Source of the DNA: Minisyncoccota bacterium
Lineage (GTDB): Bacteria; Patescibacteriota; Minisyncoccia; Phycocordibacterales; UBA9973
Assembly: GCA_035510575.1 (NCBI GenBank)
Contig: DATKGV010000004.1
Coordinates: forward strand, 6,839-70,838
DNA length: 64,000 nucleotides
Direction: 5' to 3'
Shown here: piece after piece, positions 26,549 to 31,108 of the stretch
How the letters are laid out: the number at the start of each line of letters is the position of its first letter
How positions within the stretch are numbered: position 1 is the first letter of the stretch
Notes under the pieces: generated by a model
What the model saw: only the letters and a program-made list of their open reading frames with translations
The model's database searches: none
What the model was told of the DNA's origin: nothing
Program-made: the position numbers and the translations under genes

Positions 26549-26611
26549 AGTTTTTAAATATTTAATTTTTCTACATTATACAGTATTTAAATTATAAAGT
26601 CAATTTTTTAT

Positions 26612-28631: not shown

Positions 28632-29663
28632 TTATTTAAATGTAGAATTAATTTCTTTTTCTAACTTCTTCGCATCCCCATGCCTCAACATTCCTAAATA
28701 GGATTGTATACTTTCCTCTTTGTAATTGTTCTTTTTCAAATTCCTAAACATTCTTTTCTTGGTCGCTGTCCTTAAAACTCTGTGATACGGGAATTGAACC
28801 CAACCCAAGAAATCCACACCGGAAGCAAGGGTCTTGATATACAGCTTGTCCGGATGAAGTTGTAGTTTTAAATTATTATTTAAGAATTGTGAGATTTTTG
28901 GTATAAGATTCTCAAGATATGATTTGTTTTCTGAAAGAATCACAAAATCATCGGCATATCTGATATAGTATTTTACTTTCAATACATGCTTCATATATTG
29001 GTCAAATTCGTTCATATAGACATTAACTAGAAGTTGAGAAGTCAGATTGCCAAGAGGAAGACCTCGTTTGCTTGATGCTACAAACTCTGCACGTGCAGAG
29101 TTTGTAGCATTTTTGGTATAAAAGCTGTCGATGATGTTTGATAAAAGGATGTGAGTATCAGAATCGTGCATATGCACAGAAATGATACTCTTTAATATTT
29201 CGTGATTAATATTGGCGAAGAATTTGCGTATGTCGCATTTTAAAATCCAGCAAGTTTTAGTATTATTCTTTGAAACTTTTCTTGAGAAATCACGGAAGCG
29301 ATTTATGGCTTTATGAGTTCCCTTACCTATTCGGCATGAATACGAATCATAGATGAATTTCCTATCAAAATATGGGTAGAGTATTCTATATATTGCATGA
29401 TGAAGTAACCTATCTCTAACACTTGCTTTGTGAATATCGCGAGGTTTGGGGTCATTGATTTTAAAAGCTTTATATTCACCATGCTTGTAGGTTTTATTTT
29501 TTAAATCTTGATGCAAATTAAAAATATTATCCATTAATTGCAATTGGAATTTCTGCACATCTTCTTTTTGTTTTTTATCTTTTATAAATTCTTGCCATGC
29601 TAAAAGCAAATTCTCTATGGATGTGATAGAATCAAAACTATGAATAGCACCCCCCCCCCGCAC
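28632..29663 (-). CDS. diversity-generating retroelement reverse transcriptase
   Basis: RT motifs through YADDFVIL. Motif 4 reads LPLGNLTSQLLVNVYMNEFDQYM, the DGR-specific SQ form rather than QGxxxSP. GTG start immediately followed by a G10 tract. Confidence 0.75.
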   Translation of the reverse strand: MRGGGAIHSFDSITSIENLLLAWQEFIKDKKQKEDVQKFQLQLMDNIFNLHQDLKNKTYKHGEYKAFKINDPKPRDIHKASVRDRLLHHAIYRILYPYFDRKFIYDSYSCRIGKGTHKAINRFRDFSRKVSKNNTKTCWILKCDIRKFFANINHEILKSIISVHMHDSDTHILLSNIIDSFYTKNATNSARAEFVASSKRGLPLGNLTSQLLVNVYMNEFDQYMKHVLKVKYYIRYADDFVILSENKSYLENLIPKISQFLNNNLKLQLHPDKLYIKTLASGVDFLGWVQFPYHRVLRTATKKRMFRNLKKNNYKEESIQSYLGMLRHGDAKKLEKEINSTFK

Positions 29664-29721
29664 AATTCAAACCGCTTCGGTCATTAACCGAATCAAGGAA
29701 TCTTTCAGTATTTGGTGCAGT

Positions 29722-30030
29722 TTGATTGTTCCTCATATGCCAAGAACAGCCAGATACACGATTGGCGCAAGAATTGAAAACCATTTCCTTGATCTGCTTG
29801 AACTTGTGTATAAAGCATACTACGCTTCATTTGAAAATAAAAATGAAAAAATTATTGAATGCATAAGTAAAAATGATTTAATTAAATACTTGCTTCAAAT
29901 CGCTTGGGAAAATAAACTGCTCAAAGAAAAACCATATATGGAACTATCTCAAAAACTGCAAGAAGTCGGTAAAATACTTGGCGGGTGGAAAAAAGGAATT
30001 GAAAGTAAAATAAAAACTCCTGCCAAGTGA
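29722..30030 (+). CDS. Avd-like four-helix-bundle accessory protein (bAvd / 23S-IVS protein family)
   Basis: 102 aa helical protein ending ...KLQEVGKILGGWKKGI, closely resembling the bAvd C-terminus (EVGRILGSWIARV). Oriented opposite to the RT and TR. Confidence 0.5.
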   Translation: MIVPHMPRTARYTIGARIENHFLDLLELVYKAYYASFENKNEKIIECISKNDLIKYLLQIAWENKLLKEKPYMELSQKLQEVGKILGGWKKGIESKIKTPAK

Positions 30031-30046
30031 CAGGAGAAAAATGTTT

Positions 30047-30161
30047 GTTTCGAAAGAAAGAACTGTTGCCGGCATTCCACTTGTTCTTGGGATCAAACTT
30101 GTTCACGTTCACGTTCGGACCATCAGCATTGTGCCACACGTTCACGTTGCAAAGCTCGCCT
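30047..30161 (-). repeat. DGR template repeat (TR)
   Basis: 115 nt, 87 percent identical to 30484-30600. All roughly 15 mismatches are T on the plus strand (A on the minus strand) in this copy against G/A/C in the other. Its translation shows the classic AAC-rich pattern (NVWHNADGPNVNVNKFDPKNKWNAGN). Confidence 0.7.
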
Positions 30162-30413
30162 TTTGTGATAAAACCATCTATGACACCGGAGTTTAAATCA
30201 TAAACTCCTGAATATTATTCGGGACATCAAAGTCCGCCAATTTTATCACCAACAAATAATTTTATTTTTTGGAAAGTAATAAAATACTCTTGTATAAGAT
30301 ATCTCCGACACAATTCTGATTTTATTAAAATCAAAACAATGTATTTCAAGCCAAGGCCGGAAATTACCGCATTGTTCTGAATCGATCATACCATTTTCAA
30401 AATAAAAAAACTC

Positions 30414-30950
30414 TTAAATCTTTTTTAAGGATCTAAGAGTTTCAGATTCAAAGTGTCCGAAGACACTAAAAATCAAAGTATTAGTTGCGAAAGAAAGAAC
30501 TGTGGCCGGCATACCACTCGAGCTCTCGGGAGCAAACTCGTGCACGTTCACGTTCGGACCATCAGCAAAGCGCCACACGTTCACGCGGCAAAGCTCGCCT
30601 CCATCTTTAAACCATACAAGACCTTCTTTTTCATCCTGTACCATTTTAGCGGCCAATCCAAATGCTTCTTCTTTGCTGAAAAATTCATGGCCATCAGTTA
30701 TTTCTTTTTCAGTCATAACTTTGTCATTTGTTTTTTCAATAAACTTTTCAGGAACAGAAAGCATTTCTGGAAGATTGTCAAAAAATTCTTTAAATTCCCA
30801 ATAATAATTGGTTTTCAAAATTTTCTTTGCAATTTTTCCTATTGTCACTGTAGAAGATAGCTGAAGATTTTGTTTTTTTCTTAAAAGAATTATCATATAA
30901 ATAACTCCGATAAGAATCGCTAACTGAATTAAAAGATAAACTGTTTCCAT
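30414..30950 (-). CDS. DGR variable target protein (small membrane-anchored, C-terminal VR)
   Basis: 178 aa. N-terminal TM helix. C-terminal ...GGELCRVNVWRFADGPNVNVHEFAPESSSGMPATVLSF is encoded by the VR. Confidence 0.65.
   Translation of the reverse strand: METVYLLIQLAILIGVIYMIILLRKKQNLQLSSTVTIGKIAKKILKTNYYWEFKEFFDNLPEMLSVPEKFIEKTNDKVMTEKEITDGHEFFSKEEAFGLAAKMVQDEKEGLVWFKDGGELCRVNVWRFADGPNVNVHEFAPESSSGMPATVLSFATNTLIFSVFGHFESETLRSLKKI
30484..30600 (-). repeat. DGR variable repeat (VR)
   Basis: Cognate of the TR. Differs only at TR-adenine positions, plus one 2-nt indel. The 3' end (gccggccacagttctttctttcgcaac) is IMH-like. Confidence 0.7.
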
Positions 30951-31108
30951 TTTTTTATTTATTTAATTGTGAATTCTTGGTGGTATTGTAACACAAGAAT
31001 ATTAGTTTTGTCAATGGCAAATTTTAAGCTTATTTTATATAGATTTTTAGTTAACTTATACTCATCTCTAACGATTGTATAAATTGAGTATAAATTTTAT
31101 AAAGTAAA

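What the first reader, a model, noticed from the sequence alone, without database searches (positions are those of the whole stretch)
28632..30950. Diversity-generating retroelement: RT, Avd-like, TR and C-terminal VR in a small membrane-anchored target
The 117-nt segment at 30484-30600 (3' end of the gene at 30414-30950) and the 115-nt segment at 30047-30161 are 87 percent identical. Every one of the roughly 15 substitutions is at a position that is A (coding/minus strand) in the intergenic copy and C, G or T in the genic copy. That is the adenine-specific signature of DGR mutagenic retrohoming. The TR translates to an AAC-rich stretch (N-V-W-H-N ... N-V-N-V-N-K ... K-N-K-W-N).

The adjacent 343-aa reverse transcriptase carries the DGR-type motif 4 (LGNLTSQ, SQ instead of SP) and YADD. 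A 102-aa helical protein with a bAvd-like C-terminus (EVGKILGGWKKG) lies between them. The target is only 178 aa with an N-terminal TM anchor. This points to a surface-displayed hypervariable ligand-binding tip on a tiny protein, of interest for an episymbiotic lifestyle.
Basis: partly seen in the sequence, partly recalled or inferred. Interest (0 to 1): 0.75.

Follow-up and report, generated by a model that had tools for sequence, protein, structure and literature searches.

The report
CPR-type diversity-generating retroelement, frameshifted target
This is a real diversity-generating retroelement of the kind already known from ultra-small Patescibacteria (CPR), aimed at a tiny uncharacterised protein, but as assembled its target is frameshifted and its accessory gene lacks an in-frame start.

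Summary
TR (30160-30046, minus strand) and VR (30599-30483) differ by 15 substitutions, all at template adenines (P about 4e-10). The RT is closest to the Bordetella phage DGR RT, and an Avd is present.

Three points need correcting:
- Avd is on the opposite strand. This is the known CPR layout, target-TR-(avd)-RT (architecture B3).
- The 117 versus 115 nt difference is a 2-nt insertion in the VR that frameshifts the target. Intact relatives are about 150 aa and end in ...W.AG..SFFRN*.
- "Surface display" is unsupported. 31 of 39 family members have no export signal, and the seven with a TM helix carry their positive charges on the C-terminal flank, which predicts a cytoplasmic domain.

The target family is small (about 100 clusters) and has no Pfam domain. 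A confident AlphaFold model has no significant PDB neighbour.

70 of 83 related loci share the same anatomy. This includes covarying RNA hairpins flanking the TR and a G7-12 or dinucleotide tract at the avd/RT junction. That tract is the only G/C run of 7 or more in the 64 kb window, and it may be a phase switch.

Verdict: a new member of a known kind, with several unreported details.

The parts
28632..29663 (-). DGR reverse transcriptase, 343 aa from GTG 29663. Motif 4 is LPLGNLTSQ and the catalytic motif is YADD.
   Evidence: ORF. Pfam RVT_1 1.8e-25. Best PDB match is 8ub7_A, a 328-aa RT carrying IGSLTSQ and YMDD that I take to be Bordetella phage bRT: 9e-38 and 134 bits, against 70 bits or less for group II intron or retron RTs. 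PHROG 1423 2e-110. 527 relatives in GTDB genomes; the top 80 are almost all Ca. Nomurabacteria / Paceibacterota.
29075..29110 (.). Perfect 36-nt palindrome (18+18) in frame inside the RT. It encodes ..NATNSARAEFVAS.. in the loop between IDSF and motif 4.
   Evidence: Relatives carry 6 to 156 nt at this spot. Long inserts are 1-4 near-perfect hairpins of differing sequence.
29650..29659 (.). C10 (+ strand) / G10 (- strand) homopolymer in the overlapping 5' ends of the divergent avd and RT genes.
   Evidence: It is the only G/C run of 7 or more in the 64 kb window. It is conserved as G7-G12 in 71 of 83 loci and replaced by (GA)n or (GT)n in most of the rest. The ENA twin scaffold has an N gap exactly here.
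29644..30030 (+). avd (accessory variability determinant), on the strand opposite to RT. The frame is open from 29644 and the profile match starts at about 29680. The first canonical in-frame start is TTG 29722. An ATG at 29632-29634 would be in frame only if the tract were C9 or C12.
   Evidence: Pfam bAvd PF22296 1.5e-17, profile positions 2-106 of 107. NCBIfam DivGenRetAVD 2.4e-18 but 66 bits, below the 80-bit cut-off. PHROG 'Avd protein of DGR' 5e-17. Frame analysis.
30007..30036 (-). Hairpin CUCCUGUC-ACUU-GGCAGGAG plus a U tract, 10 nt after the TR. Candidate Avd-binding stem-loop and/or terminator of the TR RNA. The avd stop codon lies in its loop on the other strand.
   Evidence: A hairpin plus T tract is present in 68 of 70 related loci with compensatory stem changes. 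Stem-loops just downstream of the TR are reported for 207 of 278 DGRs, including CPR ones (preprint 10.1101/2023.10.23.563531).
30046..30160 (-). Template repeat (TR), 115 nt, non-coding. It reads GELCNVNVWHNADGPNVNVNKFDPKNKWNAGNSSFFRN in the target frame.
   Evidence: 18 variable codons give a theoretical protein diversity of about 1e18.
30174..30238 (-). Conserved structured element 5' of the TR. It comprises hairpin P1 (GGAC 30235-32 / GTCC 30225-22), linker CGAAUAAUAUUCA, hairpin P2 (GGAGUUUA 30208-01 / UAAACUCC 30195-88), then GGUGUCAUAGAUGG.
   Evidence: For 7 hand-placed pairs, 85.8% of cells are paired against 61.6% in shuffles (0 of 500 shuffles reach it) and 32-50% in slid controls. 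There are 106 double-sided changes. No Rfam match.
30401..30442 (-). AT-rich hairpin (arms 30442-30427 and 30423-30408) followed by T7. Possible terminator of the target gene.
   Evidence: Inverted repeat I22 and sequence. It was not scored by the terminator scan because it has fewer than 3 GC pairs.
30452..30467 (-). Hairpin AGUGUC-UUCG-GACACU, 15 nt after the VR. Candidate target-site inverted repeat.
   Evidence: It is kept in L001 with loop UUGG, but no hairpin sits at a fixed place across the 70 loci.
30483..30599 (-). Variable repeat (VR), 117 nt. It has 15 A-to-N differences from the TR plus a 2-nt insertion (around 30519-30523). The natural stop TAA would be at 30483-30481.
   Evidence: Homologs end ...SFFRN*. 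The identical VR, including the insertion, is present in L002 and L083.
30414..30950 (-). Target ORF as assembled (178 aa). It has an N-terminal hydrophobic helix (residues 4-23, nt 30941-30882), a domain of about 110 aa, and an out-of-frame 49-residue tail after the insertion (12 shifted VR codons plus a 37-codon extension past the natural stop).
   Evidence: AF2 model of the 71%-identical intact homolog P0002 has pLDDT 91.8.
30985..31014 (-). Promoter-like site TTGACA-18-TACAAT with an extended TG, upstream of the target gene.
   Evidence: 11 of 12 consensus matches. This is a consensus match only.

Best explanation
What it is. The locus is a chromosomal diversity-generating retroelement of the lineage typical of Patescibacteria (CPR). 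It corresponds to Wu et al. architecture B3, target-TR-(avd)-RT, and to Roux et al. clade 2.

Proposed mechanism. Each step is inferred from the Bordetella phage paradigm unless marked as shown.
1. The TR is transcribed on the minus strand as part of a structured non-coding RNA. Two covarying hairpins and conserved linkers lie 5' of it, and a hairpin plus U tract lies 3' of it (shown by comparison of related loci).
2. RT and Avd, which are encoded divergently with overlapping 5' ends, bind this RNA and copy the TR into cDNA, misincorporating opposite template adenines.
3. The cDNA replaces the last 38 codons of the target gene. What is shown: 15 of 15 differences are at A, and at all 5 informative sites where the TR differs from the sister lineage's TR, each VR follows its own TR.

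The target. It is the minimal, stand-alone form of a C-terminal variable module that also ends many larger CPR DGR targets. The alternating N-V-N-V codons fall on two adjacent predicted beta-strands plus the following loop. This would give a variable sheet face with up to about 1e18 protein variants.

State in this genome. As assembled, the element looks non-productive. A 2-nt insertion beside AAG-AAC-AAG, a known by-product of DGR reverse transcription, frameshifts the VR. Avd also has no in-frame start at tract length C10. Both defects are reversible in principle, the first by a new retrohoming event and the second by a 1-nt change in the tract.

Location of the variable domain. It more likely faces the cytoplasm than the cell surface.
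For: - A-specific TR/VR pair.
- DGR-type RT.
- Avd.
- Same order and orientation in related loci: avd is inverted in 79 of 79 loci, and an A-biased TR/VR pair with the same geometry is present in 70 of 83.
- Architecture B3 makes up 90% of CPR DGRs (PMC5758913). CPR forms clade 2 (PMC8144416).
- Concerted TR-to-VR evolution, 5 of 5 sites.
- RNA elements.
- Frameshift.
- VR indels next to AAC are known in 7% of DGRs (PMC5758913). They occur in 9 of my 70 loci.
- Shared module: hhalign 97.7% probability to the C-termini of a second target cluster.
- Topology.
Against: - No read-level data. The VR is identical in three assemblies (window, ENA WOOD18-1 scaffold, JGI Ga0182011 contig) that differ by SNPs elsewhere, so there is no sign of current diversification.
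- The Avd score is below NCBIfam's curated cut-off.
- No conserved inverted repeat follows the VR across the lineage.
- One family member (P0005) has a signal-peptide-like N-terminus, which argues for export.
- Promoters and terminators are consensus matches only.
- The whole TR RNA does not fold better than shuffled sequence (z = -1.6).
Confidence: 0.88

Rival explanations
1. The element is a decaying, permanently inactive DGR remnant. The target is pseudogenised by the 2-nt insertion and avd has lost its start.
For: - The frameshift removes the conserved last strand ...W.AG..SFFRN.
- There is no ATG, GTG or TTG in the avd frame before TTG 29722.
- The VR is identical in three assemblies that carry SNPs elsewhere.
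Against: - The RT ORF is intact with all motifs.
- The TR keeps an open AAY-rich frame.
- All flanking RNA elements are intact and match the lineage consensus.
- The spacer between target and TR looks far more conserved against L001 than the 87% locus average (by eye about 95%; not computed).
- Similar VR indels occur in 9 of 70 otherwise intact relatives and are a known DGR by-product.
Confidence: 0.2
2. One or both frame problems are sequencing or assembly artefacts. The homopolymer length may be miscalled, or the consensus may have been built across a heterogeneous VR. On this reading the real element is fully functional.
For: - The tract is a 10-nt G/C homopolymer, and the ENA scaffold breaks exactly there.
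- VRs are heterogeneous by nature.
- Among relatives, 21 of the 76 loci scored for this also lack an in-frame avd start.
Against: - The same 2-nt insertion is present in three assemblies from at least two pipelines. They may, however, derive from the same or related samples.
- The RT's own GTG start is in frame only at G10.
Confidence: 0.25
3. One reading: the target is a membrane-anchored, surface-displayed hypervariable ligand-binding tip used in the episymbiotic lifestyle.
For: - The window protein and six relatives have an N-terminal hydrophobic helix.
- P0005 has a signal-peptide-like N-terminus.
- Most cellular DGR targets outside the CPR are membrane-anchored binders (PMC8144416).
Against: - 31 of 39 members lack any hydrophobic N-terminal segment.
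- In all seven TM-bearing members the charges (+3 to +4 after the helix, 0 to -1 before it) predict an N-out, C-in orientation.
- CPR clade-2 targets typically lack TM domains.
- Other targets in the 70 related loci mostly begin without hydrophobic segments. This was judged by eye only and not scored.
Confidence: 0.3
4. The two repeats are ordinary diverged paralogous sequence and the adenine bias is chance.
For: None beyond the fact that only one pair exists in the window.
Against: - P is about 4e-10.
- The same signature is present in 70 related loci.
- RT and Avd are adjacent.
Confidence: 0.01

Closest known systems
CPR / Patescibacteria DGRs, architecture B3 'TR-(avd)-RT' (Wu et al. 2018, PMC5758913), also DGR clade 2 (Roux et al. 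2021, PMC8144416)
   Same: - The order target-TR-inverted avd-RT is the same.
- The closest RT relatives are all Patescibacteria.
- The target has no known domain.
- The VR is of an unclassified type.
- An occasional frameshifting VR indel sits next to AAC.
   Different: - This target family is unusually small (about 150 aa, essentially only the variable module), and a minority of members have an N-terminal TM helix.
- I found no mention in the papers I could read of the junction homopolymer, the in-frame RT palindromes or the 5' hairpin element. Paul et al. 2017, the main CPR DGR paper, was not available to me.
Bordetella phage BPP-1 DGR (mtd-avd-TR-brt)
   Same: - Adenine-specific TR-to-VR transfer.
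- The RT has [ILV]GxxxSQ and YxDD, and bRT is its best solved relative.
- An Avd four-helix protein is present.
- The VR sits at the C-terminus.
- There is a stem-loop just 3' of the TR.
   Different: - Here avd is on the other strand and overlaps the RT head-to-head, so the region 3' of the TR is antisense avd rather than a 140-nt spacer.
- The RNA 5' of the TR is intergenic rather than the avd 3' end.
- The target is not a phage tail fibre, and no CLec fold was recovered.
- The locus is chromosomal, among housekeeping genes.
C-type-lectin-fold DGR variable proteins (Mtd, TvpA, archaeal AvpA)
   Same: - C-terminal VR with AAY-coded variable positions.
- A conserved aromatic/Gly ... F-R end.
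- An alpha+beta domain with the helix before the variable strands.
Simple-sequence contingency loci (for example homopolymer or dinucleotide tracts in Neisseria and Haemophilus phase-variable genes) [own knowledge]
   Same: - A long G/C homopolymer, or (GA)n or (GT)n, lies in the 5' coding or leader region.
- Its length varies (7-12) between relatives.
- A mixture of in-frame and out-of-frame states is seen.
   Different: - It sits between two overlapping divergent genes of a retroelement.
- No within-population length data exist.
- In about 30 relatives the avd start may lie after the tract, so frame control is not universal.

Membership tests
Diversity-generating retroelement (DGR) | Reverse transcriptase of the DGR clade (motif 4 [ILV]GxxxSQ, YxDD; closer to bRT than to group II intron or retron RTs) | tested here: met
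   LPLGNLTSQ and YADD are present. PDB 8ub7_A scores 134 bits against 70 bits or less for group II intron or retron RTs. The NCBIfam group II model scores 150 bits, below its 300-bit cut-off. No formal phylogeny was built.
Diversity-generating retroelement (DGR) | TR/VR near-repeat close to the RT whose mismatches are at TR adenines | tested here: met
   15 of 15 mismatches are at A, P about 4e-10.
Diversity-generating retroelement (DGR) | VR lies at the 3' end of a protein-coding target, with TR adenines at codon positions 1-2 | tested here: met
   32 of 33 A are at positions 1-2. In intact homologs the stop follows the VR directly. In the window the frame is broken by a 2-nt insertion.
Diversity-generating retroelement (DGR) | Accessory protein Avd | tested here: met
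   Pfam bAvd scores 64.4 bits, above its 40-bit cut-off. PHROG Avd 5e-17. NCBIfam scores 66 bits, below its 80-bit cut-off. There is no canonical in-frame start before 29722.
Diversity-generating retroelement (DGR) | IMH / IMH* at the 3' ends of the repeats and an inverted repeat after the VR | tested here: inconclusive
   The repeats share a 3' block ..GCCGGC.ACAGTTCTTTCTTTCG and then diverge. A 6-bp hairpin with a UUCG loop lies 15 nt downstream. No hairpin sits at a fixed place in the 70 relatives.
Diversity-generating retroelement (DGR) | Ongoing diversification: VR heterogeneity restricted to TR-A positions within populations | tested here: inconclusive
   Past transfer is shown by 5 of 5 concerted sites against L001. 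The VR is identical in three assemblies. A metagenome pattern scan found no other variant. Reads are not available with these tools.
CPR DGR architecture B3 (TR-(avd)-RT) | avd on the reverse strand between TR and RT | tested here: met
   Seen in the window, in 79 of 79 relatives, and in the P0002 locus in a different genomic context.
C-type lectin fold variable protein | Structural similarity of the VR-bearing domain to CLec / FGE-sulfatase folds | tested here: inconclusive
Phase-variable contingency locus | Simple-sequence tract whose length sets the reading frame or expression, with length heterogeneity within a population | not testable with these tools
   The tract is present and conserved. 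Its length varies between relatives, and in-frame and out-of-frame states are mixed: 25 loci have a start upstream of the tract, 30 only after it, and 21 have none. Within-population heterogeneity needs reads.

The most novel reading that the evidence does not exclude
In this CPR DGR lineage the mutator may itself be under contingency control. A hypermutable G/C homopolymer (or a GA or GT repeat) sits inside the overlapping 5' ends of avd and RT and could switch Avd (and in some members RT) translation on and off. This could happen by slippage at the DNA or RNA level, so that hypermutation is only intermittently licensed. The window would be caught in an OFF state with a frameshifted VR awaiting repair by the next retrohoming event.

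Coupled to this, the target would be a stand-alone domain of about 110 aa with a fold not seen in solved structures, working on the cytoplasmic side of the membrane. That would make it a genuinely intracellular DGR target.
Probability: 0.25. Interest if true: 0.75.

Novelty: new member of a known kind. Interest (0 to 1): 0.5.

Why it matters
The DGR itself adds little, because CPR genomes are known to be rich in elements of exactly this layout. Four side results could be useful:

1. **A minimal target.** This family is the smallest form of the CPR variable module: about 110 structured residues, a confident model and no solved relative. That makes it a practical entry point to a question Roux et al. 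left open, namely whether CPR DGR targets are non-membrane, possibly intracellular, proteins, and what they bind.
2. **A possible regulator.** The simple-sequence tract conserved at the avd/RT junction suggests a testable on/off control of hypermutation.
3. **The RNA scaffold.** The covarying hairpins around the TR define the RNA scaffold for this architecture, in which avd is antisense to the region 3' of the TR.
4. **An oddity in the RT.** The in-frame palindromic inserts in the RT fingers loop are an unexplained mutational or structural feature.

Tried and rejected
- **Extra VRs in the window.** TR patterns with A replaced by N, allowing up to 3 mismatches, found only the TR and the VR.
- **Target against sequence libraries.** Pfam, NCBIfam, PADLOC, PHROGs and PDB sequences gave no hit.
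- **Genome scan with the target profile.** I therefore used the RT to fetch loci.
- **Metagenome scan for VR variants.** A degenerate TR pattern returned only one near-identical contig with the same VR.
- **Exact look-ups of the RT product.** These returned only the ENA twin scaffold, so there are no population data on the tract or the VR.
- **Rfam.** Nothing relevant was found; one sub-threshold miRNA hit lies on the RT palindrome.
- **Whole TR RNA fold.** Not significantly stable (z = -1.6).
- **RNAalifold on the 5' element.** It failed on the gappy MAFFT alignment, so I tested hand-placed pairs instead. That structure was derived from these same sequences.
- **Conserved hairpin after the VR.** Rejected as a lineage feature.
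- **First scripts with errors.** My first TR/VR script failed on BLAST gap parameters, and my first concerted-evolution comparison was off by one base. Both were redone.
- **Literature.** Paul et al. 2017 could not be read.
Full report
**1. The observation**

On the minus strand, the intergenic segment 30160..30046 and the genic segment 30599..30483 align over 115 TR positions with 15 substitutions and one 2-nt gap, which is 87% identity. Every substitution lies where the intergenic copy has A. With 33 A among 115 bases, the chance of 15/15 by position is about 4e-10.

In the target's frame the TR reads GELCNVNVWHNADGPNVNVNKFDPKNKWNAGNSSFFRN. 32 of 33 adenines are at codon positions 1-2 and 10 of 38 codons are AAY. 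18 codons are variable, for about 1e18 possible proteins. Degenerate TR patterns find no further copy in the 64 kb window.

This insertion shifts the frame of the last 12 VR codons.

**2. The proteins**

*RT.* The RT (28632-29663, minus strand, 343 aa) carries LPLGNLTSQ and YADD. Its best solved relative is 8ub7_A, a 328-aa RT with IGSLTSQ and YMDD, which I take from its sequence and length to be the Bordetella phage bRT. It scores 134 bits, against 70 bits or less for group II intron and retron RTs. Other results are Pfam RVT_1, a sub-threshold group II hit in NCBIfam, a generic RT model as best hit in PADLOC and PHROG 1423 at 2e-110.

*Avd.* The Avd match is clear in Pfam (bAvd 1.5e-17, profile positions 2-106 of 107) and in PHROGs ('Avd protein of DGR'). 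It is below NCBIfam's cut-off. The gene is on the plus strand, divergent from the RT.

*Published context.* Wu et al. call this layout architecture B3, TR-(avd)-RT, and report it for 90% of CPR DGRs (PMC5758913). Roux et al. place CPR DGRs in their own clade 2 (PMC8144416).

**3. Relatives**

The RT has 527 relatives in GTDB genomes. The best 80 (61-72% identity) are almost all Ca. Nomurabacteria / Paceibacterota MAGs.
- In 79 of 79 loci with an Avd hit, avd is inverted and abuts the RT start.
- 70 of 83 loci have an A-biased TR/VR pair with the same geometry, the VR lying about 360-560 nt upstream of the TR.
- The window is 99.9-100% identical to an ENA scaffold (WOOD18-1_SAMN07125033 scaffold_13008) and to a JGI contig (Ga0182011_10066668).

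**4. The target**

*Family.* Homologs of the 178-aa ORF are 125-165 aa and, where intact, end ...W.AG..SFFRN, either directly at the stop or before an extension of about 40 aa. Removing 'TC' from the window's VR restores ...PESEWYAGHSSFFRN followed by TAA at 30483-30481. As assembled, therefore, the gene is frameshifted.

The family is small: 39 clusters at 90% identity and 102 representatives among 1.84 billion proteins. None carries a Pfam domain.

*Structure.* An AlphaFold model of the 71%-identical intact homolog P0002 is confident (pLDDT 91.8). It shows a TM helix, a linker, a short helix, a hairpin, a long helix and four strands. The VR covers the last three strands and the loop between them. 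The N-V-N-V and N-V-N-V-N stretches fall on two neighbouring strands, which implies a variable sheet face (inference).

*Shared module.* Profile comparison links the VR module to the C-termini of larger targets in the same RT lineage: 97.7% probability, E = 1.7e-12, to one cluster, and 66% probability in the same register to another. The window's protein is therefore a stand-alone copy of a module shared by many CPR DGR targets.

**5. Location of the variable domain**

Only 7 of 39 family members have a hydrophobic N-terminal helix. In all seven the flank after the helix carries +3 to +4 and the flank before it 0 to -1. By the positive-inside rule (established knowledge) this predicts N-out, C-in, which places the variable domain in the cytoplasm.

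31 members have no export signal at all. One (P0005) has a signal-peptide-like start.

Roux et al. note that CPR clade-2 targets typically lack TM domains and leave open whether they are truly non-membrane proteins. Surface display is therefore not supported. I put it at about 0.3.

**6. Activity**

*Evidence for past transfer.* The sister lineage L001 (87% identical DNA over the locus) has its own TR. At all 5 positions where the two TRs differ by non-A bases, each VR follows its own TR.

*Evidence against current turnover.* The VR, including the insertion, is identical in the three assemblies, which differ by 3 SNPs each elsewhere. A metagenome scan with a degenerate TR pattern found no other variant. 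The three assemblies may come from the same or related samples, and they are consensus sequences.

*Known precedent for the indel.* Length differences between TR and VR occur in 7% of DGRs, 11 of the 25 cases shift the frame, and 74% of the indels lie next to AAC. Wu et al. attribute this to slippage during reverse transcription. In my set, 9 of 70 loci have such indels. The insertion is therefore best read as a by-product of retrohoming that a further round could overwrite.

**7. The avd/RT junction**

The avd frame is open from 29644, and the profile match begins at about 29680. There is no ATG, GTG or TTG in frame before TTG 29722.

A C10/G10 tract (29650-29659) lies in between. It is the only G/C run of 7 or more in the window.
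- An ATG at 29632 would be in frame with avd at C9 or C12.
- The RT's GTG at 29663 is in frame at G10.

The tract is conserved as G7-G12 in 71 of 83 loci (length 9 in 27 loci, 10 in 25, 11 in 11). In most of the others it is replaced by (GA)n or (GT)n. What is conserved is therefore the repeat and not the peptide, which reads PPP in one case and SLSLSL in the other.

Of the 76 loci scored for this, 25 have an in-frame start upstream of the tract, 30 have one only after it, and 21 have none. This pattern fits a slippage-prone switch, acting at the DNA or RNA level, but it also fits homopolymer miscalls. The ENA scaffold has an N gap at this spot. I found no paper in the held library that links DGRs with such tracts.

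**8. RNA elements**

*3' of the TR.* Ten nt after the TR lies the hairpin CUCCUGUC-ACUU-GGCAGGAG plus a U tract. An equivalent hairpin plus T tract is present in 68 of 70 loci with compensatory stem changes. Handa et al. report putative Avd-binding stem-loops just downstream of the TR in 207 of 278 DGRs, including CPR ones.

*5' of the TR.* Two hairpins are separated by CGAAUAAUAUUCA and followed by GGUG...AGAUGG. This layout recurs in about 67 loci. Seven hand-placed pairs are 85.8% paired, against 61.6% in shuffles (0 of 500 shuffles reach the observed value) and 32-50% when slid. There are 106 double-sided changes and G-U pairs on the TR-sense strand. The structure was drawn from these same sequences, which flatters it.

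*Other results.* Rfam has no match. No hairpin is conserved at a fixed place after the VR. A strong promoter-like site precedes the target.

**9. Verdict**

This is a genuine DGR and a new member of the known CPR B3 / clade-2 kind, caught in what looks like a non-productive state. Four further results are of moderate interest:
- the minimal target with an unassigned fold and a probable cytoplasmic orientation;
- the junction tract;
- the RNA scaffold around the TR;
- the in-frame palindromes in the RT.

Noticed in passing
window 29650-29659 (and the same position in L003-L082): A C10/G10 homopolymer lies in the overlapping 5' ends of the divergent avd and RT genes. It is the only G/C run of 7 or more in the 64 kb window. 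It is conserved as G7-12 in 71 of 83 related loci and replaced by (GA)n or (GT)n in most of the others. The avd start is in frame only at C9 or C12. It may be a phase-variation or slippage switch, or a hotspot for homopolymer miscalls.
   Followed up: partly
window 29075-29110; same site in L003-L082: A perfect 36-nt palindrome lies in frame in the RT between IDSF and GLPLGNLTSQ. Relatives carry 6-156 nt there. Long inserts consist of 1-4 near-perfect hairpins of different sequence (peptides such as TNSAMAEFVAS, NPIGKAYGV, IYAMADM, THMRDSVNV), and both arms change together. The window holds only one copy. On the plus strand it scores as terminator-like.
   Followed up: partly
window 30174-30238 (- strand): A conserved two-hairpin element with invariant linkers (..AAUAAWAUWCA.., ..GGUGRNA.NAGAUGG) lies about 15-80 nt 5' of the TR. 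It is shared by about 67 related loci, has strong covariation and has no Rfam family.
   Followed up: yes
window 30161-30413 vs L001: The non-coding spacer between the target stop and the TR looks far more conserved against L001 than the locus as a whole (87% overall). By eye from the alignment it is about 95%; this was not computed. It contains a weak promoter-like site at 30400-30371.
   Followed up: no
window 30431-30480 (- strand) and downstream of VRs in many loci: Short motifs of the form CTTTGA / CTTAGA / CTTGGA recur two to four times in the 70 nt after the VR. In the window they are ACTTTGA at 30479-73 and 30454-48 and CTCTTAGA at 30439-32. In relatives they often form arms of imperfect hairpins. 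Their meaning is unknown.
   Followed up: no
family alignment A3 (P0002-P0039): About half of the target family carries an extra C-terminal extension of about 40 aa after ...SFFRN (..LTLEN..K.AG.K...), so the VR is internal there. P0005 has a signal-peptide-like start, while most members have neither a TM helix nor a signal.
   Followed up: partly
L002 5989-6032 vs window 26553-26572: The ENA twin scaffold has a second N gap, flanked by a duplicated GAAAAATTAAATATTTAAA. This lies in the intergenic region between the lysyl-tRNA synthetase gene and the small 51-aa ORF. It is an assembly difference that I did not examine.
   Followed up: no
JGI 3300075153 contig (P0002 locus, no DNA fetched): A closely related cassette (target 71% identical, DNA 87%) sits between a pseudouridine synthase gene and ribosomal protein L19. 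In the window it sits between 2-hydroxyacid dehydrogenase and GreA. The whole cassette has therefore moved between chromosomal sites.
   Followed up: no
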